From Bacteroidales bacterium (GTDB lineage: Bacteria; Bacteroidota; Bacteroidia; Bacteroidales; UBA12481): a DNA stretch of 64,000 nucleotides. The DNA lies in assembly GCA_041662065.1 (NCBI GenBank), contig JBAZTE010000019.1, positions 13,631-77,630 of the forward strand, read 5' to 3'. The notes under the pieces are model-generated. The model did not search any database and had not been told where the DNA came from. It was given only the letters and a program-made list of their open reading frames with translations. The position numbers and the translations under genes are program-made. Of the stretch, positions 54,831 to 61,518 are shown piece after piece (positions within the stretch are counted from its first letter, which is position 1; the number at the start of each line of letters is the position of its first letter).

Positions 54831-56618
54831 ATGAGGAATACTGTCAGGATATTATATCGGTTGTTTTGGAATAGCCTTATCCCAATGATCCTGGTTTCAG
54901 GGATTTTCCTGATGCCGGGGTGCAAAAGAGAGGAACCAACCGTTCCTCCATTGATTGTAGCCAGTGTGTCTCCAGCCGCTGGCAATACAACCCAGGTCTT
55001 CACTTTCGACCTCTCCAAATCGGACAGCCGGACTGACCGGGGCGACAAGGTATTTACCCGGTGGGATTGGAATGGCGATGGCAAATGGGACACCCCCTTC
55101 ACCCGCATGTTGGTTTTTGAGCACCGTTACCATGCCCCCGGCACCTGGAAAACCAGGCTGGAAATGTCGAACCTAAACGGTACGATCGACACCCTGGGTT
55201 TTGTGATTCAGGTGGAACAGGGCTATTCGCCGCCCAATCCCGTATTCAGGATATTTCCTGATGAGGGTCATATATTTACCCGATATCTGCTGGATGCCTC
55301 AGGCACCCGGGATGACGAGGATTCACTCGACCAGCTCACATTCAGGTGGGACTTTAACGGGGATGGCACCTGGGATACCCATTTTGGAGATTCAGTGACC
55401 ATTTTTCATGTTTATCCCGAAGCAGGATTTTATCAACCTAAATTACAGGTCAGGGACCCATCGGGACTGATCAGCCCTGCCTCATCAGAACTTCGGGTTA
55501 CTACAATAGATAAGAGGCTGTATGTGAGCTTCAAATGCATCCCCGATTCGGTCACGCATAACACACCGATCATCATGGATGCCTCAGCTACCACCGATCT
55601 TGATTTTCCGGACAAACCGCTTCAATACCGGTGGGATTGGGAAGACGATGATTTCTGGGATACCGATTGGCAGTCGGAGCCCATCACCTCACATGTTTTC
55701 AGGAAAGAGTACTTTCATTCGATCCGGTTGCAGGTCAGAAGTTTCCGAGGATTGACCAATGATACGGTGAAGAAAATCAGGGTATATCACCAGAATCAGG
55801 TGCCCCGGGCATCATTCTATGCGAATACGCTGACCGGGAATACAAAAACCGAGTTCAGGCTCGATTGCTGGCCAAGCCGTGACGTAGAATCCTCACCATC
55901 GGATCTTTCGTACCGTTGGGATTTTGACGGGGACGGGAACTGGGATACTGACTTTTTCACTGACCAGATGATCACCATGCACCGTTATTCCTTCCCGGGA
56001 ACCTATCATATCAGCCTGGTAGCGAAGGATCAGCTGGGTGAGCAGGATACCTGTACCCGGGTGATCCACGTGAGCAACGGCCTGAATGAAACAGGACTGT
56101 ATCAGGACAGGCGGGGCGACAGCTGGGAGTATTACGGAACCGTTCATATCGGCAACCAGTGGTGGTTTACCCGCAATATGAGCATCCATGACACCTTGCA
56201 TTACAACCAATTTTACTATAATAACTCATGGGCTAATTATTATGATTACGGAAATCTCTATGGGAGCGGGAGCATCGCGTATATCTGTCCGCCCGGCTGG
56301 CGCCTGCCCTCCAAAGAGGATTGGGACAAACTTTTTGCCAACTACCCGGAAGATCGATTGTTTGATGCGCTGATGCCCGGAGGTGAATCCGATTTCGGAT
56401 TGGTACTGGGCGGTTCGGGGAAAGGTACTACGATAGTCGACATAAAATATCAGGGCATTGACCAATATGCAGGATACTGGACATTGACCAAACCGGCCGG
56501 TGCAGGCTCAACAAGCCTCTGGATGATAGAATTCGACCTCGCAAACCGGAAAATTCTCAAGGGTTACAACAGCCCTGAAAAGAGAAAACTTTCGGTCAGG
56601 TGCGTCAAGGATGAATAA
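54831..56618 (+). CDS. Lipoprotein with four PKD-like repeats and a C-terminal FISUMP domain (tandem paralog)
   Basis: It is collinear with the previous gene. The lipobox is LMPGC and the C-terminus runs YGTVHIGNQWWFTRN...CPPGWRLPSKEDW...LSVRCVKDE. The ATG directly follows the upstream TAA. Confidence 0.8.
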   Translation: MRNTVRILYRLFWNSLIPMILVSGIFLMPGCKREEPTVPPLIVASVSPAAGNTTQVFTFDLSKSDSRTDRGDKVFTRWDWNGDGKWDTPFTRMLVFEHRYHAPGTWKTRLEMSNLNGTIDTLGFVIQVEQGYSPPNPVFRIFPDEGHIFTRYLLDASGTRDDEDSLDQLTFRWDFNGDGTWDTHFGDSVTIFHVYPEAGFYQPKLQVRDPSGLISPASSELRVTTIDKRLYVSFKCIPDSVTHNTPIIMDASATTDLDFPDKPLQYRWDWEDDDFWDTDWQSEPITSHVFRKEYFHSIRLQVRSFRGLTNDTVKKIRVYHQNQVPRASFYANTLTGNTKTEFRLDCWPSRDVESSPSDLSYRWDFDGDGNWDTDFFTDQMITMHRYSFPGTYHISLVAKDQLGEQDTCTRVIHVSNGLNETGLYQDRRGDSWEYYGTVHIGNQWWFTRNMSIHDTLHYNQFYYNNSWANYYDYGNLYGSGSIAYICPPGWRLPSKEDWDKLFANYPEDRLFDALMPGGESDFGLVLGGSGKGTTIVDIKYQGIDQYAGYWTLTKPAGAGSTSLWMIEFDLANRKILKGYNSPEKRKLSVRCVKDE

Positions 56619-57009
56619 CCAATTTTACGATCTCGAAGGAATCATTGGTGGCGCCCTGAATAGCTTCAATAACGGTTTCCGGCATTCCGGCCGACAAGGC
56701 TGACATATCAAGAAGGGCGACATAGGTCTTACCGTCTTCTTTCTCATAAACCGATATCCGGCAGGGCATCATGACAGAAACAATCCTTTCGTGATTTTTC
56801 TCAAGCATCTGGCCTGAGAAAGCCGGTTTACAAATTTCAACAACCTGCACGGGCCTGACAGTTTTGCCTGACTTGGCCAATGATTGCTGAAGATTGTGCG
56901 TGGCAGGATTTTGCCAATCCTTTTTACCAGCGGCTTCGATAATCTTTTCAACGGTTGTTGGAACATCAAATGGACTTACCTGCTCGATAATGAATTGATT
57001 TGTGGTCAT
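56605..57009 (-). CDS. DUF302-domain protein
   Basis: The 134-aa protein reads VQVVEICKP....MMPCRISVYE, as in DUF302 proteins. It is the last gene of the minus-strand operon. Confidence 0.65.
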   Translation of the reverse strand: MTTNQFIIEQVSPFDVPTTVEKIIEAAGKKDWQNPATHNLQQSLAKSGKTVRPVQVVEICKPAFSGQMLEKNHERIVSVMMPCRISVYEKEDGKTYVALLDMSALSAGMPETVIEAIQGATNDSFEIVKLVIHP

Positions 57010-57027: not shown

Positions 57028-58296
57028 TTAATCTAGTTCTTTTGCAATCACAATGGCAGCAATGGTTCCATCGGCAACAGCCGTGGTGATCTGCCTGAAT
57101 TTTTTCGAAATCACATCCCCAACAGCAAAAACTCCGGGTATACTGGTGCGCATATCTTCATCTGTTTTTATATACCCCCATTTATCAAGTTCCAGCTTAT
57201 CGTGGAACAGTGAAATATTGGGTTTCATCCCGATAAAAACAAAAACTCCATCGCTGATCAGTTTTGACCGCTTGCCGGTTTTCAGATCTTCGATTTCGGT
57301 GACCATTTTTTCACCTTCGCGGGCAAATGACCTGGGTTCAGTTTCAAAGAGCACACTGATTTTTGGATTGTCCAGCAGTTTCTCCTGAGCCTGCTTATTG
57401 GCGCTTAATTGGGCAAACTGATGGACCATGGTAATCTTGCTGGCGAATTTGCTGATGAAATCGGCTTCCTCAACCGCAGAATTACCTCCCCCGATTACAA
57501 TGACTTCCTTATCTCCGAAATATTTGGCATCGCAGGTGGCACAGTAAGAAATCCCCCTGCCTTTGAGTTCTTTTTCACCCGGAATTCCCATCAGGTTTGG
57601 TGAGGTGCCGGTGGCGATGATGATGCGCCTGGCTTTCACAGTTTCGAATTCATCGATCACCACCTCCTTGGTTTCCAGGTTTATACGGGTCACATCGACT
57701 GCCACTTTATATATGGTCCCGCACAGCTTGGTCTGCTCTGACATATTGTGTGACAGCATATAGCCAGGCTGAGGATCAATGAATCCGGGGTAATTGGATA
57801 CCTCATGGGTAGTTGAAACATGTCCTCCGGGTAAAGCTATATCGATAAGTACCGTGTTAACTTTCGACTGGCAGAGGTACAACCCGGCGGTCAGTCCTCC
57901 CGGACCGGCTCCAAGGATCAGAACATCAAATTCGGAAACCGTTGGTTTTATTTTGTCTTTGATTTCTTTTACGCGGTCCGATGGCAGCATGTTATCCAGA
58001 TGATGAATGATGTCGCTCCGCTTGATACCTCCTGTCAGCATTCCCGGAAGCTGGACTCCGTTATCAAAAAACAGCAGGGTTGGTGAGGACCGTACGCCCA
58101 GCTTTTCGGCGAGGGGCTTGTTTTGCTGCCGGAACATTTTGACAAACTTGATGTCTTTACCATACAATCCGGCCAATCCTTCAAATTTTGGGGCCAGTGC
58201 CTCACAAGGTGGGCATTCGGTCGAATAAAAATCGAGCACTACTTTCCCACCTGCCAATACTTCGCTGTCAAACTCAGCTGTTGTAATTTCTTTCAT
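57028..58296 (-). CDS. Thioredoxin-thioredoxin reductase fusion protein (N-terminal Trx fold with CPPC, C-terminal FAD/NAD(P)H TrxR with CATC)
   Basis: The Trx motif is STECPPCEAL and the FAD motif is LILGAGPGGLTAG. The redox motif is SYCATCDA, the NAD(P)H motif is VIGGGNSAVEEA, and the C-terminal motif is GVFAVGDV. Confidence 0.85.
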   Translation of the reverse strand: MKEITTAEFDSEVLAGGKVVLDFYSTECPPCEALAPKFEGLAGLYGKDIKFVKMFRQQNKPLAEKLGVRSSPTLLFFDNGVQLPGMLTGGIKRSDIIHHLDNMLPSDRVKEIKDKIKPTVSEFDVLILGAGPGGLTAGLYLCQSKVNTVLIDIALPGGHVSTTHEVSNYPGFIDPQPGYMLSHNMSEQTKLCGTIYKVAVDVTRINLETKEVVIDEFETVKARRIIIATGTSPNLMGIPGEKELKGRGISYCATCDAKYFGDKEVIVIGGGNSAVEEADFISKFASKITMVHQFAQLSANKQAQEKLLDNPKISVLFETEPRSFAREGEKMVTEIEDLKTGKRSKLISDGVFVFIGMKPNISLFHDKLELDKWGYIKTDEDMRTSIPGVFAVGDVISKKFRQITTAVADGTIAAIVIAKELD

Positions 58297-58304
58297 TTTA
58301 AATT

Positions 58305-59651
58305 TTATTTTTCTTTATCCAGATAGGCTCCAAAACCCAGCTCCAGTAATTCCTTAACCGGACGGCAATCTGTTGAACAGATGCTCCCCGTCCGATTCTT
58401 TGCCACCGATCCGCAGCCTCCGCCGCAAGCCAGCTGCAGATTGCAGTTTCGGCACTCTTCAATGGCCGTGACATCTCGGTTTTCCCATTCATCGATCAGA
58501 TCAGCCTTTCGGGTAACTTCAGGGTAAAAAGTTCCGAGGGATTCATCAGCTTTGCCAACCGTAGCGGTACATGGGAAAATATGACCGGTATAATCGAAAG
58601 CCCATTCGGTTTTGCAGGCCGGACAGCCATCGAACAGCGGATCGGGCAAGCTTCCGTTTTCAGCCAGGAATTTTGAAACGGAATAGGCTGGCTTATAGAA
58701 TTCCAGAATGTGAGGAAATTTCATTGTCAGGTTGAAAATCGACTCATAGAGTGCAATCCTGCTGAACAGCTTATCCGGCGAAGCTTGGCAATGATGAAGT
58801 TCATAGTTGCGTCCGATCTGTGTTTTAAAGAATGGGCTCACCGTCCAGCCCTTGTCAATGGCAAATCGGGCAAGGTCGGCAAGTCCGTCGATGTTTTCGC
58901 GGTCGGCGACCATGCGGAGGTTTATCGGAATGTTATGGGCCAGACAAACATCGATACCTTTGACAATTTTCTCAAAGGTTGAGCCTCCGCCTTTCAGGAA
59001 TCGGCGATTATCGTGCACTGCACCAACGCCATCCAGGGTAACTTGAATTTCACGAATCCGTCCCTCCTTTAAAATCTCCAGATACTCCTCCAGTGCATAG
59101 CCGTTGGTTACAAAACATACATCAAGTTGAAGGAAACTGGCCTGATACAGGAAGTATGAGATCAGTTCTTTCTGTTTGGACGAGTTCAGGAGGGGTTCAC
59201 CGCCAAATACGGTAATGTATGTTTTCCTGCCGGCAAATTCCTTTGTGATGTATTGAAAAAACGCATCGATAATCTCCGTACCCAAAGTCTGGTTTGGATT
59301 TGAGTACTCGTCCTGGTAGCAATAGGTACAGGCAAAATTGCAGGTATAATTGGGTACGAAAAAGAGCTGCACTTCATCCTGATCCCGTGCATCGGTAAAA
59401 TCAAGATATTTCAAACGGTACAGTCGTTTCTCCTCCTCATCTTCCAGGATATAACCCTTCTCTGTCAAATCGGCCATGAACTCCGGATTGACCAGCTTAC
59501 CGGCAACCAGATCATTCACCATCTGCCCCTCAGCCGGAGTCAGAATATCCGCATTTCCAGTCAGGATATTGACAATAAACCAATTATCCGATCCGGAGAT
59601 TTTTGAGAAGATATTATGTTTTGAAAAAATCATGGTATCAACAGGCTTCAT
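58305..59651 (-). CDS. Radical SAM enzyme with full SPASM domain and ~100-aa N-terminal extension (peptide-maturase-like)
   Basis: CNFACTYC (C104/C108/C111) is the CX3CX2C motif. The SPASM region reads CKTEWAFDYTGHIFPC (CX9GX4C), then CRNCNLQLACGGGC (CX2CX5CX3C), with further downstream Cys. Confidence 0.85.
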   Translation of the reverse strand: MKPVDTMIFSKHNIFSKISGSDNWFIVNILTGNADILTPAEGQMVNDLVAGKLVNPEFMADLTEKGYILEDEEEKRLYRLKYLDFTDARDQDEVQLFFVPNYTCNFACTYCYQDEYSNPNQTLGTEIIDAFFQYITKEFAGRKTYITVFGGEPLLNSSKQKELISYFLYQASFLQLDVCFVTNGYALEEYLEILKEGRIREIQVTLDGVGAVHDNRRFLKGGGSTFEKIVKGIDVCLAHNIPINLRMVADRENIDGLADLARFAIDKGWTVSPFFKTQIGRNYELHHCQASPDKLFSRIALYESIFNLTMKFPHILEFYKPAYSVSKFLAENGSLPDPLFDGCPACKTEWAFDYTGHIFPCTATVGKADESLGTFYPEVTRKADLIDEWENRDVTAIEECRNCNLQLACGGGCGSVAKNRTGSICSTDCRPVKELLELGFGAYLDKEK

Positions 59652-59656
59652 GCAGG

Positions 59657-59758
59657 TCAGTCATGGCAACCGGCAACTACCTTAGAGGTTTTGGCACAAC
59701 ATTGCGCCGTTTTTTTGACGGTTGTCTTTTCGTTTTTCTTTTTAATCAATGTTTTCAT
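59657..59758 (-). CDS. Unlisted 33-codon ORF, candidate precursor peptide MKTLIKKKNEKTTVKKTAQCCAKTSKVVAGCHD
   Basis: I translated it by hand from the minus strand. The ATG is at 59758-59756 and the TGA at 59659-57, 5 nt before the radical SAM ATG. It has 9 Lys in the leader-like half and Cys20, Cys21 and Cys31. It falls below the 60-aa cutoff of the ORF track. Confidence 0.55.
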   Translation of the reverse strand: MKTLIKKKNEKTTVKKTAQCCAKTSKVVAGCHD

Positions 59759-59854: not shown

Positions 59855-60502
59855 CTATTTACCACAGCCGCATCCGGCTGCCCTTTTCCCAGCAACCGTA
59901 AAGCTTGCCACTTCGGCTTTGCCTTTCGGATAGGGGTCTGATTCTTCGATTACCTCCACCGATGTGAATCCTGCCAGGGCCAGGTGCTGCATGTAATCAG
60001 CCCGGGTTACCGCACCGGCCCAGCATTCGGCAATTGCGACGGGATCGTTCCGGTATTCATCGGGAATAGCAACGGTAGCATAGATATCACTGATGATAAA
60101 TCGTCCGCCTTTTTTCAGTATCCGATAGATTTCGTTCCAGACCACCTGTTTATCGGAGGCATGATTGAGCGTACAATTGGAAATCACGAGATCAGCCGAT
60201 TGGTCCTGCAATTCGATTTTTTCCAATTCACTTTTAACAAACATCACATTGGTCACTCCAAGTTTATCGGCATTTCTCCTGGCTTTCTCCAACATACCGT
60301 CAGCCATATCAATACCAAAAACAAAGCCTTCAGAACCCACTTTATCAGCCATGCGAAGCACATCGTTACCGCGACCGCTGCCCAGATCGACACATACCTC
60401 CCCGGGCATGGGTTCGGCATAGTTGATCGCCCCTCCGCATGAAAGGCAGCAATCGGATTCTGCCAATTGACTGTAACGATTGTTTATCTCTTTAATTTCC
60501 AT
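59855..60502 (-). CDS. ArsM-like (arsenite/thiol) SAM-dependent methyltransferase
   Basis: The N-terminal Cys cluster is SDCCLSCGG, motif I is VDLGSGRGND, and ISNCTLNH matches the conserved SNCV-type Cys. The C-terminus is AGCGCGK. Confidence 0.65.
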   Translation of the reverse strand: MEIKEINNRYSQLAESDCCLSCGGAINYAEPMPGEVCVDLGSGRGNDVLRMADKVGSEGFVFGIDMADGMLEKARRNADKLGVTNVMFVKSELEKIELQDQSADLVISNCTLNHASDKQVVWNEIYRILKKGGRFIISDIYATVAIPDEYRNDPVAIAECWAGAVTRADYMQHLALAGFTSVEVIEESDPYPKGKAEVASFTVAGKRAAGCGCGK

Positions 60503-60572: not shown

Positions 60573-60812
60573 TTAACAGCTTCGGCAGGGTCGGTTTATG
60601 AAGGCCAGGCCCAGGAAGCCTCCTGAGATGATACTCAGGTACGGGTTGCTGGTTATGGCGCAGGATCCTGAAGCGCAGCCGATAAAGTGATAATACAGAT
60701 ACCCCAGGATTCCTCCTATAATGATAGCCCTGGCCGGTGTCCAGAAATAAGCTGAACCCATCAGTTCCCTGAATGTCTTTGGTTTGGCAACCACTTCGCA
60801 GTCTTTACTCAT
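60573..60812 (-). CDS. Small two-TM membrane protein with GCASGSC and CRSC motifs (DUF6132-like)
   Basis: The 79-aa protein reads GGILGYLYYHFIGCASGSCAITSNP. The family name is from memory only. Confidence 0.5.
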   Translation of the reverse strand: MSKDCEVVAKPKTFRELMGSAYFWTPARAIIIGGILGYLYYHFIGCASGSCAITSNPYLSIISGGFLGLAFINRPCRSC

Positions 60813-61077: not shown

Positions 61078-61518
61078 ATGACCCGAATTTTTCGTGAAGG
61101 GATAACCGAAGTCGAGTTGAAATTGCTTTTTGAGAGCGATCAGGCTTGTCTGGAATTCCTTGCTGATTTAAAATGGTCGAAGGGATTTACCTGCCGGAAA
61201 TGCGGGAACGATAATTCCTGTCCCGGTAAAACACCATTTGCGCGGCGTTGCACAAAATGCAAATCCGAAGAATCTGCTACTACGGGTACCATTTTCCATC
61301 ACTGCAAATTCCCGGTCAGCAAGGCGTTTTACATTGCCTATCATGTTTGCAAAGGAAAAGAGGACATATCAACCTATGAATTCGCCCGTCGTTTGTCGCT
61401 CCGTCAAATGACCTGCTGGAACTTCAAGAATAAAACCATGACGGCACTCAGCCAGATGCCTTCCCTGACAGAGAATGAAAAGTCGGCCATCGAGCGGATG
61501 CTGAGCAGTGGGCAGTAA
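61078..61518 (+). CDS. IS1595-type transposase zinc-ribbon N-terminal domain only (no DDE domain)
   Basis: The protein reads CLEFLADLKWSKGFTCRKCG...RRCTKCKSEES. At 146 aa, the catalytic half is absent. Confidence 0.55.
   Translation: MTRIFREGITEVELKLLFESDQACLEFLADLKWSKGFTCRKCGNDNSCPGKTPFARRCTKCKSEESATTGTIFHHCKFPVSKAFYIAYHVCKGKEDISTYEFARRLSLRQMTCWNFKNKTMTALSQMPSLTENEKSAIERMLSSGQ

What the first reader, a model, noticed from the sequence alone, without database searches (positions are those of the whole stretch)
57028..58296. Thioredoxin (CPPC) fused N-terminally to a thioredoxin reductase (CATC), embedded in the rSAM operon
The sequence shows one polypeptide with a complete Trx fold (STECPPCEAL) followed by a complete low-Mr TrxR (GxGxxG FAD and NAD(P)H motifs and CATC). 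The domain order is the reverse of the known TrxR-Trx fusions (Mycobacterium leprae TrxR-Trx, plant NTRC). It is closer to the AhpF layout but with a single Trx module. Its position directly after an rSAM enzyme and a Cys peptide suggests one of three roles. It may be a dedicated reductant for the Fe-S clusters, a keeper of reduced peptide thiols, or a reductase for a disulfide or metalloid adduct.
Basis: partly seen in the sequence, partly recalled or inferred. Interest (0 to 1): 0.6.

Follow-up and report, generated by a model that had tools for sequence, protein, structure and literature searches.

The report
Fused thioredoxin–reductase tied to peptide cassette
One gene encodes a thioredoxin joined in front of its own reductase; this fused form is not rare, but this particular lineage is always found with a radical-SAM enzyme, a near-invariant cysteine peptide and an arsenite-methyltransferase-like enzyme in two bacterial phyla, so it is most likely their private disulfide reductase.

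Summary
Window 57028-58296 (minus strand) encodes one 422-aa protein: a thioredoxin (CPPC, residues 1-103), a 19-residue helical linker, and a low-Mr thioredoxin reductase (GAGPGG, GRG, CATC, GGGNSAVEE).

It is a second reductase, because the genome has a canonical TrxB and free thioredoxins elsewhere. It lacks the NADPH 2'-phosphate motif: HRRDxxR is replaced by HQF(D)xxxA, which is invariant in 239 relatives. NADH is the likely donor.

N-terminal Trx-TrxR fusions are not rare. They arose at least 8 times, and some lineages sit in unrelated contexts. This lineage is different.
- In 401 sampled Bacteroidota genomes, four carry the fusion, and they are the same four that carry the rSAM enzyme.
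- Of 80 close loci, 72 keep the rSAM gene.
- Carboxydothermus hydrogenoformans and Acetivibrio cellulolyticus (Bacillota) keep methyltransferase, peptide, rSAM and fusion together, in changed gene order. The peptide core AQCC[AS]K[TS]SKxVAGCHD is almost unchanged.

My best reading (0.6) is a self-contained reductase that keeps or recycles cysteines of the peptide and/or the ArsM-like methyltransferase. A role as Fe-S reductant is unlikely.

The scan had already noted this module (e1-5010547, e1-5010546). I rate it a new variant of a known kind, interest about 0.5.

The parts
57028..58296 (-). Whole gene for the 422-aa thioredoxin-thioredoxin reductase fusion (stop codon 57028-57030)
   Evidence: ORF and translation; Pfam PF00085 + PF07992; AlphaFold2 model with pLDDT 91.9 and pTM 0.85
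57988..58296 (-). Thioredoxin domain, residues 1-103. CPPC lies at 58204-58215 and the cis-Pro SPT at 78-86 of 58078-58086
   Evidence: PF00085 E 1.8e-18. C28, C31 and P72 are invariant in 27 diverse fusions. CPPC is present in 120 of 120 close relatives
57931..57987 (-). Linker, residues 104-122, mostly one helix (106-115)
   Evidence: DSSP on the model, with block pLDDT 87-93
57031..57930 (-). Low-Mr thioredoxin reductase module, residues 123-422. GAGPGG at 57895-57912, GRG at 57553-57561, CATC at 57532-57543, GGGNSAVEE at 57466-57492, VHQFAQLSANK (in place of VHRRDxxRAxK) at 57394-57426
   Evidence: TIGR01292 308 bits; best solved relatives are TrxRs at E 6e-69; motif positions; alignments to HRRD enzymes
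58305..59651 (-). Radical SAM/SPASM peptide-maturase-like enzyme (448 aa) directly upstream, 8-nt gap
   Evidence: PF04055. The best NCBIfam hits are rSAM/SPASM maturases, all far below their cut-offs. Present in 72 of 80 related loci
59657..59758 (-). 33-aa peptide gene, with C-terminal core AQCCAKTSKVVAGCHD
   Evidence: ORF. The core is invariant in 68 Bacteroidota loci and nearly so in C. hydrogenoformans and A. cellulolyticus
59855..60502 (-). Short ArsM-like SAM methyltransferase (215 aa). It keeps the ArsM cysteines (C22, C110, C160), an N-terminal CC pair and a C-terminal CxC tail
   Evidence: NF008823 198.7 bits, below the 263-bit cut-off; cysteine conservation and alignment to the genome's own canonical ArsM
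56605..57009 (-). DUF302 protein (134 aa), 18 nt downstream of the fusion
   Evidence: PF03625 E 1.3e-15. Present in 64 of 80 Bacteroidota loci, but not found in the Bacillota cassettes examined
60573..60812 (-). DUF6132-like two-helix membrane protein with paired cysteines; first gene of the unit in this window
   Evidence: Weak PF19628 hit; present in 42 of 80 loci

Best explanation
The gene encodes a self-contained two-step disulfide reductase that belongs to a four-gene module: ArsM-like methyltransferase, near-invariant Cys peptide, rSAM/SPASM enzyme, and the Trx-TrxR fusion.

Proposed electron path:
1. A reduced pyridine nucleotide, probably NADH because the three NADPH 2'-phosphate arginines are missing, reduces FAD.
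2. FAD reduces the CATC disulfide.
3. After the usual rotation of the nucleotide domain, CATC reduces the tethered CPPC thioredoxin domain.
4. CPPC reduces a disulfide in a client that belongs to the module.

The most likely clients are the three cysteines of the peptide (before or after rSAM tailoring) and/or the catalytic cysteine pair of the ArsM-like methyltransferase.

What is shown: the architecture, the redox motifs, the loss of the NADPH motif, the presence of a separate housekeeping system, and the tight cross-phylum gene linkage.

What is inferred: the electron path, the donor and the identity of the client.
For: - Architecture and motifs.
- The pyrophosphate motif GGGxxAxE and the Trx-binding GRG are kept. 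HRRDxxR is replaced by HQF(D)xxxA in all 120 Bacteroidota-type and nearly all 119 Bacillota-type relatives. The meaning of these motifs comes from PMC5627308.
- The AlphaFold2 model is confident (pLDDT 91.9, pTM 0.85). Its reductase part matches the flavin-reducing conformation, in which the reductase cysteines are exposed to thioredoxin (5mh4, rmsd 2.1, against 6.8 for the FO form 5mjk).
- It is a second system. The genome has a canonical TrxB over the curated cut-off, with a basic VRKNYLRA motif, and free thioredoxins.
- Linkage in this window: 8-nt and 18-nt gaps to the neighbouring genes, with no convincing terminator inside the unit.
- Linkage in close relatives: of 80 loci, 72 have the rSAM gene, 68 the peptide, 67 the methyltransferase.
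- Linkage in a phylum sample: of 401 Bacteroidota species genomes, the single-frame fusion is found in exactly the four genomes (four families) that have the rSAM enzyme.
- Linkage at lower identity: relatives at 59% and 41% identity keep the module.
- Linkage across phyla: C. hydrogenoformans and A. cellulolyticus keep all four genes in different orders.
- Metagenome loci seeded from the Bacillota protein: 7 of 7 fused loci with enough flank have all three partners. Of 41 loci scored as unfused, 38 have none; two of the three exceptions are full-length fusion-type ORFs that my script misclassified.
Against: - No client was identified and no biochemistry exists.
- Three close relatives (76-77% identity) lack the rSAM and peptide genes. 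They sit among thioredoxins, rhodanese, DUF1847, DUF2892 and DUF302, or after a methyltransferase alone (L083, L084, L086).
- Many cassette loci also carry extra thioredoxins, OsmC, a 388-aa flavoprotein and Crp/Fnr or ArsR regulators. The enzyme may therefore serve a broader thiol-stress island.
- In an anaerobe's cytoplasm thiols are reduced anyway, so the need for a private reductase is not obvious.
- NADH preference is inferred from a missing motif only.
Confidence: 0.6

Rival explanations
1. It is a general second thioredoxin system for oxidative, disulfide or reactive-sulfur stress. It is merely carried in the same accessory island as the rSAM genes and has no specific client among them.
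For: - Neighbouring loci often carry free thioredoxins (46 of 85 loci), OsmC, rhodanese, DUF2892, a 388-aa Pyr_redox_2 protein, and Crp/Fnr or ArsR regulators.
- L083 and L084 keep the fusion without the rSAM and peptide genes.
- The nearest unfused relative, P0132, lies in a Crp-linked Grx/Trx/OsmC cluster.
- Anaerobes are known to keep extra, specialised TrxRs (PMC5627308).
Against: - Exact co-occurrence with the rSAM enzyme in the phylum sample: 4 with both, 0 with only one, 397 with neither.
- The four genes stay together across two phyla despite rearranged order.
- The gap to the rSAM gene is only 8 nt.
Confidence: 0.2
2. It reduces a small molecule or metalloid species directly. Examples are a pentavalent methylated arsenic or selenium intermediate, or a peptide-metalloid adduct made by the ArsM-like methyltransferase. 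On this reading it does not reduce a protein disulfide.
For: - The methyltransferase keeps the ArsM cysteines and a CxC tail.
- It is the partner that stays when the rSAM and peptide genes are lost (L084, L086).
- Organoarsenical pathways pair ArsM with rSAM enzymes, as the NCBIfam names of the methyltransferase hits show.
Against: - The genome already has a full ars operon with a canonical ArsM elsewhere: ArsP, ArsR, ArsM at 328 bits, ArsC, Acr3.
- No arsenic transporter or arsenate reductase lies in the cassette.
- The methyltransferase scores below the ArsM cut-off.
Confidence: 0.1
3. It is the electron donor that reduces the [4Fe-4S] clusters of the neighbouring rSAM/SPASM enzyme.
For: - Immediate adjacency.
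- TrxR-fold flavoproteins that act as ferredoxin/flavodoxin reductases exist (FdR group in PMC5627308; PDB hits).
Against: - Those reductases lack the CxxC pair. Here both CATC and CPPC are invariant, which points to dithiol chemistry.
- The thioredoxin potential is far above that of radical-SAM clusters (general knowledge).
- Small ferredoxin genes lie in some cassettes and are more natural donors.
Confidence: 0.05

Closest known systems
AhpF (alkyl hydroperoxide reductase subunit F; TIGR03140; PDB 1hyu, 4o5q)
   Same: - A Trx-fold redox module sits N-terminal to a TrxR-type flavoprotein on one chain.
- It lacks the HRR motif, in line with the NADH use I recall for AhpF.
- It is the only solved architecture that aligns over both parts of the model (414-422 columns).
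- The AhpF profile aligns from residue 64 of the fusion.
   Different: - AhpF has two Trx folds (about 200 aa) and serves the peroxiredoxin AhpC.
- Here there is one classical thioredoxin (PF00085) and no peroxiredoxin neighbour.
- The score is 201.6 bits against a cut-off of 502.9.
- The domain placement differs (rmsd 14-17).
- The reductase part is closer to TrxB than to AhpF (308 against 202 bits).
NTRC of plastids and cyanobacteria (PDB 7p9d/7p9e), and the Mycobacterium leprae TrxR-Trx fusion
   Same: Natural single-chain fusions of a low-Mr TrxR with a thioredoxin. They form a self-contained reductase for a defined client.
   Different: - The domain order is reversed: there Trx is C-terminal (TrxR at residues 3-300 of 487).
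- Those enzymes use NADPH.
- C-terminal fusions form other branches of the tree.
NADH-preferring or otherwise non-NADPH low-Mr TrxRs of anaerobes (Desulfovibrio vulgaris TR3 with its own atypical thioredoxin; Thermotoga maritima TrxR; Thermosipho TrxR, PDB 7jyp)
   Same: - A second, specialised TrxR kept next to the housekeeping one.
- HRRDxxR is lost while GGGxxAxE is kept (PMC5627308).
- Paired with a non-WCGPC thioredoxin.
   Different: - Those enzymes are not fused to their thioredoxin.
- Their 2'-phosphate-region motifs differ from HQFD.
- They are not linked to rSAM or methyltransferase genes as far as described.
Thioredoxin-glutathione reductase (TGR; TIGR01438)
   Same: A redoxin (Grx) domain fused N-terminally to a thioredoxin reductase, giving an internal electron relay.
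   Different: The reductase is the high-Mr class of animals, with an interface domain and a C-terminal Sec/Cys tail. It is unrelated in origin, and the match here is weak (56 bits against 476).

Membership tests
Low-Mr thioredoxin reductase (TrxB, TIGR01292) | FAD-binding GxGxxG and GD motifs | tested here: met
   GAGPGG at 129-134 and AVGDV at 391-395; G129, G131, G393 and D394 are invariant
Low-Mr thioredoxin reductase (TrxB, TIGR01292) | Redox-active CxxC in the nucleotide domain, preceded by the Trx-binding G[R/K]G | tested here: met
   GRGISYCATC at 246-255. CATC is present in 120 of 120 Bacteroidota-type and 112 of 119 Bacillota-type relatives. The motif definition is from PMC5627308
Low-Mr thioredoxin reductase (TrxB, TIGR01292) | NADPH signature: GGGxxAxE plus VxxxHRRDx[F/L]R | tested here: not met
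   GGGNSAVEE is present, but HRRDxxR is replaced by HQFAQLS (HQFD in most relatives)
Low-Mr thioredoxin reductase (TrxB, TIGR01292) | Score over the curated equivalog cut-off | tested here: not met
   308.1 bits against 343.45. The genome's other TrxB scores 374.8
Low-Mr thioredoxin reductase (TrxB, TIGR01292) | Nucleotide-dependent reduction of thioredoxin | not testable with these tools
   Needs an enzyme assay
Thioredoxin (PF00085 / TIGR01068) | Trx fold with CxxC and cis-Pro | tested here: met
   PF00085 66.9 bits, over the 23.5-bit cut-off; C28, C31 and P72 are invariant
Thioredoxin (PF00085 / TIGR01068) | Canonical WCGPC active site and equivalog score | tested here: not met
   The active site is ECPPC. 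TIGR01068 scores 59.7 bits against a cut-off of 96.8
AhpF (TIGR03140) | N-terminal domain of two Trx folds, score over the cut-off, and an AhpC partner | tested here: not met
   One Trx fold of about 103 aa. Score 201.6 against 502.9 bits. No peroxiredoxin among the cassette genes
NTRC / M. leprae-type TrxR-Trx fusion | Thioredoxin domain C-terminal to the reductase | tested here: not met
   Here Trx occupies residues 1-103 and TrxR residues 123-422
NAD(P)H-independent TrxRs (FFTR, DTR, DvTRi) | Degenerate pyrophosphate motif as well as loss of the 2'-phosphate motif | tested here: not met
   GGGNSAVEE is intact. FFTR structures are much more distant (E 1e-20 to 1e-22) than ordinary TrxRs (E 6e-69)
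Cassette-linked CPPC-Trx/HQFD-TrxR fusion clade (defined here) | Single ORF of about 420-435 aa with CPPC/CAPC, CATC and HQFD, next to an ArsM-like methyltransferase, an AQCC...GCHD peptide and an rSAM/SPASM enzyme | tested here: met

The most novel reading that the evidence does not exclude
The four genes make and run a ribosomally encoded, rSAM-tailored cysteine peptide that works catalytically, as a thiol cofactor or metalloid/sulfur carrier for the ArsM-like methyltransferase. The Trx-TrxR fusion is its private NADH-driven reductase. This would be a peptide-based counterpart of glutathione with glutathione reductase, or of the mycofactocin system, in anaerobes of at least two phyla that have no known low-molecular-weight thiol.
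Probability: 0.2. Interest if true: 0.8.

Novelty: new variant of a known kind. Interest (0 to 1): 0.5.

Why it matters
Thioredoxin systems are textbook chemistry. Even so, the N-terminal fusion to a low-Mr reductase has, as far as the searchable literature shows, never been characterised, although it is carried by cultured bacteria such as Carboxydothermus hydrogenoformans.

This lineage has lost the NADPH signature and travels with three other genes across phyla. A peptide whose core is almost unchanged between Bacteroidota and Bacillota is not a typical antibiotic-like product. It looks like a working part.

Finding the client of this reductase would reveal what the module does. Candidates include thiol cofactor chemistry, metalloid methylation and sulfur handling in anoxic habitats. 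The enzyme is easy to test: one protein, one nucleotide, one dye assay.

Tried and rejected
- **Complex prediction.** A job with the thioredoxin domain (alignment A2) against the ArsM-like methyltransferase (A3) gave no verdict (score 0.13, mark 0.32). It counts neither for nor against binding.
- **Literature.** Searches found no paper on this cassette or on N-terminal low-Mr fusions. Tried terms: DUF302 + rSAM + TrxR; N-terminal thioredoxin fusion; ArsM + rSAM + thioredoxin; Carboxydothermus + TrxR + rSAM. DUF302 papers only link it loosely to sulfur-oxidation clusters.
- **NCBIfam.** No model exists for the peptide, DUF6132 or DUF302 proteins, even at E up to 10.
- **Split form.** I tested whether the 122-aa gene before the nearest unfused TrxR (P0126) is a split-off thioredoxin domain. 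There is no similarity (E 0.43) and no Pfam hit.
- **Short contigs.** Contexts of P0128 and P0137 were on contigs too short to judge.
- **Arsenic locus.** I considered that the cassette is the organism's arsenic detoxification locus. This is rejected as the main reading, because a full ars operon with a canonical ArsM lies elsewhere in the genome.
Full report
**What is there.**
- Residues 2-101 match Pfam Thioredoxin (E 1.8e-18).
- Residues 123-410 match Pyr_redox_2 (E 1.6e-54).
- The best NCBIfam model is thioredoxin-disulfide reductase TIGR01292 over residues 124-420. It scores 308 bits, below the curated 343-bit cut-off.
- C28, C31, P72, C252 and C255 are invariant in an alignment of 27 fusions reaching down to 32% identity.
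- An AlphaFold2 model built on that alignment is confident throughout, with mean pLDDT 91.9 and pTM 0.85. A helix at 106-115 lies in the 19-residue linker.

The only correction is the strand.

**A second, non-canonical reductase.**
The genome has another TrxB that passes the curated cut-off (375 bits). Its 2'-phosphate region is basic, VRKNYLRA. The genome also has several free thioredoxins.

In the fusion the pyrophosphate motif GGGxxAxE is intact, but VxxxHRRDxxRA reads VHQFAQLSA.
- Direct alignments to solved NADPH enzymes show HRRD opposite HQFA.
- The Thermosipho enzyme 7jyp also lacks HRR.
- The replacement is not an accident of this sequence. HQF(D/A/E) is found in all 120 Bacteroidota-type relatives and HQFD in nearly all 119 Bacillota-type relatives.
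- It marks a well-supported clade of the reductase tree (SH-aLRT 96) that also holds a few unfused enzymes.

Valette et al. (PMC5627308) define GGGxxAxE and HRRDx[F/L]R as the NADPH signatures and G[R/K]G as the thioredoxin-binding site. They describe anaerobe TrxRs that lost HRR and use NADH or other donors. Because the pyrophosphate motif is kept, I infer a pyridine nucleotide without the 2'-phosphate, that is NADH. This is inference, not measurement.

**How common is the architecture.**
It is not rare.
- Among the 140 nearest 50%-identity cluster representatives with a full reductase domain, 19 carry an N-terminal extension of at least 85 residues, most with a CxxC. Thirty carry a C-terminal one.
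- On the tree the N-terminal fusions need at least 8 origins on strongly supported branches.
- Other N-terminal fusion lineages lie in unrelated places: beside rpsB-tsf-pyrH-frr (P0130), or beside a Thioredoxin_3 protein and an RND efflux pump (P0131).
- Cultured Bacillota carry close relatives of this lineage under the ordinary name thioredoxin-disulfide reductase. Examples are Carboxydothermus hydrogenoformans, C. pertinax, C. islandicus, Carboxydocella, Acetivibrio cellulolyticus and Zhaonella formicivorans.
- No solved structure has this order. AhpF chains are the only ones that align over both parts of the model, and they do so poorly (rmsd 14-17).
- The reductase part superposes best on TrxRs in the flavin-reducing conformation (5mh4, rmsd 2.1). 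It fits the FO form of the same enzyme poorly (5mjk, rmsd 6.8). The flavin-reducing form is the state in which the reductase cysteines face thioredoxin.
- I found no paper on such a fusion in the searchable library.

**The link to the rSAM genes.**
In the window the unit on the minus strand is, in order:
1. DUF6132-like membrane protein.
2. ArsM-like methyltransferase.
3. 33-aa peptide.
4. rSAM/SPASM enzyme.
5. The fusion.
6. DUF302 protein.

The gaps are 5, 8 and 18 nt between the last four genes, and there is no convincing internal terminator.

Evidence from other genomes:
- Of 80 loci from species genomes (76-90% identical fusions, all Bacteroidota), 72 have the rSAM gene, 68 the peptide, 67 the methyltransferase and 64 DUF302. 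Four of the eight without an rSAM hit are cut within about 300 nt of the fusion's start, and a fifth (L028) has only about 800 nt upstream.
- In an even sample of 401 Bacteroidota species genomes, the rSAM enzyme (E below 1e-160) occurs in four genomes of four families. The single-frame fusion occurs in exactly the same four. They lie together in the two I fetched, and on one contig in the third.
- Six other genomes have an unfused trx gene just before trxB in the same order. These show up as matches read through a stop codon, and none of the six has the rSAM enzyme.
- Relatives at 59% (P0121) and 41% identity (P0125) keep methyltransferase, peptide, rSAM and fusion.
- In C. hydrogenoformans Z-2901 the order is methyltransferase, peptide, rSAM, DUF5714, a 47-aa four-cysteine protein, then the fusion.
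- In A. cellulolyticus CD2 the order is rSAM, methyltransferase, peptide, fusion.
- In metagenome loci seeded from the Carboxydothermus protein, all 7 fused ORFs with enough flank have all three partners, sometimes downstream of the fusion. Of 41 loci scored as unfused, 38 have none. Two of the three exceptions are full-length fusion-type ORFs that my script misclassified.

Retention through rearrangement and across phyla is the classic sign of functional coupling.

**Limits of the link.**
Three close relatives lack the rSAM and peptide genes.
- L084 has DUF6132, methyltransferase, a secreted Trx-like protein, the fusion, DUF2892 and DUF302.
- L086 has a more distant methyltransferase directly before the fusion.
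- L083 has three Trx-like genes, DUF1847, a phosphatase-like domain and rhodanese before it.

Across all loci the recurrent extra neighbours are free thioredoxins, a 388-aa flavoprotein, a membrane Fe-S protein, Crp/Fnr and ArsR regulators, DUF1847, OsmC, DUF2892 and rhodanese. The module therefore sits in a variable thiol/sulfur-redox island. The methyltransferase is at least as faithful a partner as the rSAM enzyme.

**The partners.**
- *Peptide.* Its core AQCCAKTSKxxxGCHD is invariant in 68 Bacteroidota loci. It reads AQCCSKTSKVVAGCHD in Carboxydothermus and AQCCSKSSKVVAGCHD in Acetivibrio. Such constancy suggests a working part rather than a diversifying natural product.
- *Methyltransferase.* It keeps the three ArsM cysteines that align with the genome's own canonical ArsM (C22, C110, C160), an upstream CC pair and a C-terminal CxC tail. 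It lacks about 40 N-terminal residues and scores below the ArsM cut-off.
- *Arsenic detoxification.* The canonical ars operon (ArsP, ArsR, DsbD-like, ArsM at 328 bits, rhodanese, ArsC, Acr3) lies on another contig. The cassette is therefore not the organism's ordinary arsenic detoxification locus.
- From my own knowledge, the ArsM/AS3MT catalytic cycle is proposed to form a cysteine disulfide that thioredoxin reduces. That would give the fusion a natural client, but I could not retrieve a paper to cite for it.

**Mechanism proposed.**
NADH reduces FAD. FAD reduces CATC. The nucleotide domain rotates and hands the electrons to the tethered CPPC domain. That domain then reduces a disulfide of a module component.

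Tethering raises the local concentration and insulates the flow from the housekeeping NADPH system.

1. Keeper or recycler of peptide thiols, together with reductase of the methyltransferase's cysteine pair or of a peptide-bound adduct. Combined confidence about 0.6.
2. A general stress system. About 0.2.
3. Direct metalloid or small-molecule reduction. About 0.1.
4. Fe-S cluster reductant. About 0.05. Both dithiol centres are invariant, TrxR-fold ferredoxin reductases lack them (PMC5627308), and ferredoxin genes occur in some cassettes.

A complex prediction of the Trx domain with the methyltransferase gave no verdict and is not used.

**Comparison and novelty.**
It works like AhpF (an N-terminal redoxin module on a TrxR-type flavoprotein that lacks the NADPH signature). 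It also works like NTRC (a one-chain thioredoxin system for a defined client). It is a member of neither: it has one Trx fold, no peroxiredoxin partner, scores below the cut-offs, and has the reversed order relative to NTRC.

Among unfused enzymes, the closest in kind are the NADH-type second TrxRs of anaerobes.

I file it as a new variant of a known kind: a named but uncharacterised fusion clade with an altered nucleotide site and a fixed four-gene partnership.

The scan had already noted the module from the peptide side (e1-5010547) and on this same stretch (e1-5010546, report withheld). My cross-phylum result was obtained independently and agrees with the former.

**Verdict.**
- Interest is 0.5 for the enzyme itself.
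- The module as a whole would rank higher if the peptide proves to be a catalytic thiol cofactor or carrier (probability about 0.2).

Noticed in passing
window 61078-61518 (+): This ORF has only an IS1595-type zinc ribbon and no transposase domain. It is conserved, divergently oriented, next to the cassette in 12 of 80 related loci (63-83% identity). That fits a domesticated DNA-binding regulator better than a decayed transposase.
   Followed up: partly
window 59657-59758 (-); L108:4592-4696; L110:6658-6807: The peptide's C-terminal core AQCC[AS]K[TS]SKxVAGCHD is almost identical between Bacteroidota and the Bacillota C. hydrogenoformans and A. cellulolyticus, while the leader varies. No NCBIfam model matches it.
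   Followed up: partly
G000 contig C1, about 482800-489400 (L107:1822-8369): A complete canonical ars operon lies elsewhere in the genome: ArsP permease, ArsR, an unassigned 144-aa protein, a DsbD-like membrane protein, ArsM over the cut-off, rhodanese, LMW-PTP-type ArsC, and Acr3.
   Followed up: yes
L108:6085-6973; L093:5836-5985: Bacillota-type cassettes carry two extra genes between the rSAM enzyme and the fusion: DUF5714 (230 aa) and a conserved 47-49-aa protein with four cysteines (…C..TC…GC.DC…). Neither was seen in the window.
   Followed up: no
L083:3508-5977; L084:196-5628: These are variants without the rSAM and peptide genes. The fusion sits among three Trx-like genes, a small ferredoxin, rhodanese, DUF1847, a phosphatase-like domain, DUF2892 and DUF302, behind a Crp/Fnr-type regulator. 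It looks like a reactive-sulfur or disulfide-stress island.
   Followed up: partly
G025:C3:162033-163298; G015:C108:6034-7254; G264:C1:669901-671190; G020:C1:214784-216004; G066:C57:6624-7865; G224:C32:12998-14236: Six sampled Bacteroidota genomes have an unfused trx gene immediately before trxB in the same order as the fusion (the match reads through one or two stop codons). These are plausible precursors of such fusions.
   Followed up: no
L055:1064-1414; L104:773-1141: A 116-122-aa protein family with a single conserved Cys context (…CGRMGPMC[IL]PVYG…) and no Pfam hit recurs next to these reductases. It is found in 14 loci and before the nearest unfused relative, P0126.
   Followed up: no
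window 59855-60502 (-) and L107:5554-6384: Both the cassette methyltransferase and the genome's canonical ArsM end in a short CxC(G)K/N tail. The tail is conserved in about 80% of cassette copies. It may be a mobile redox or metal-binding tail.
   Followed up: partly
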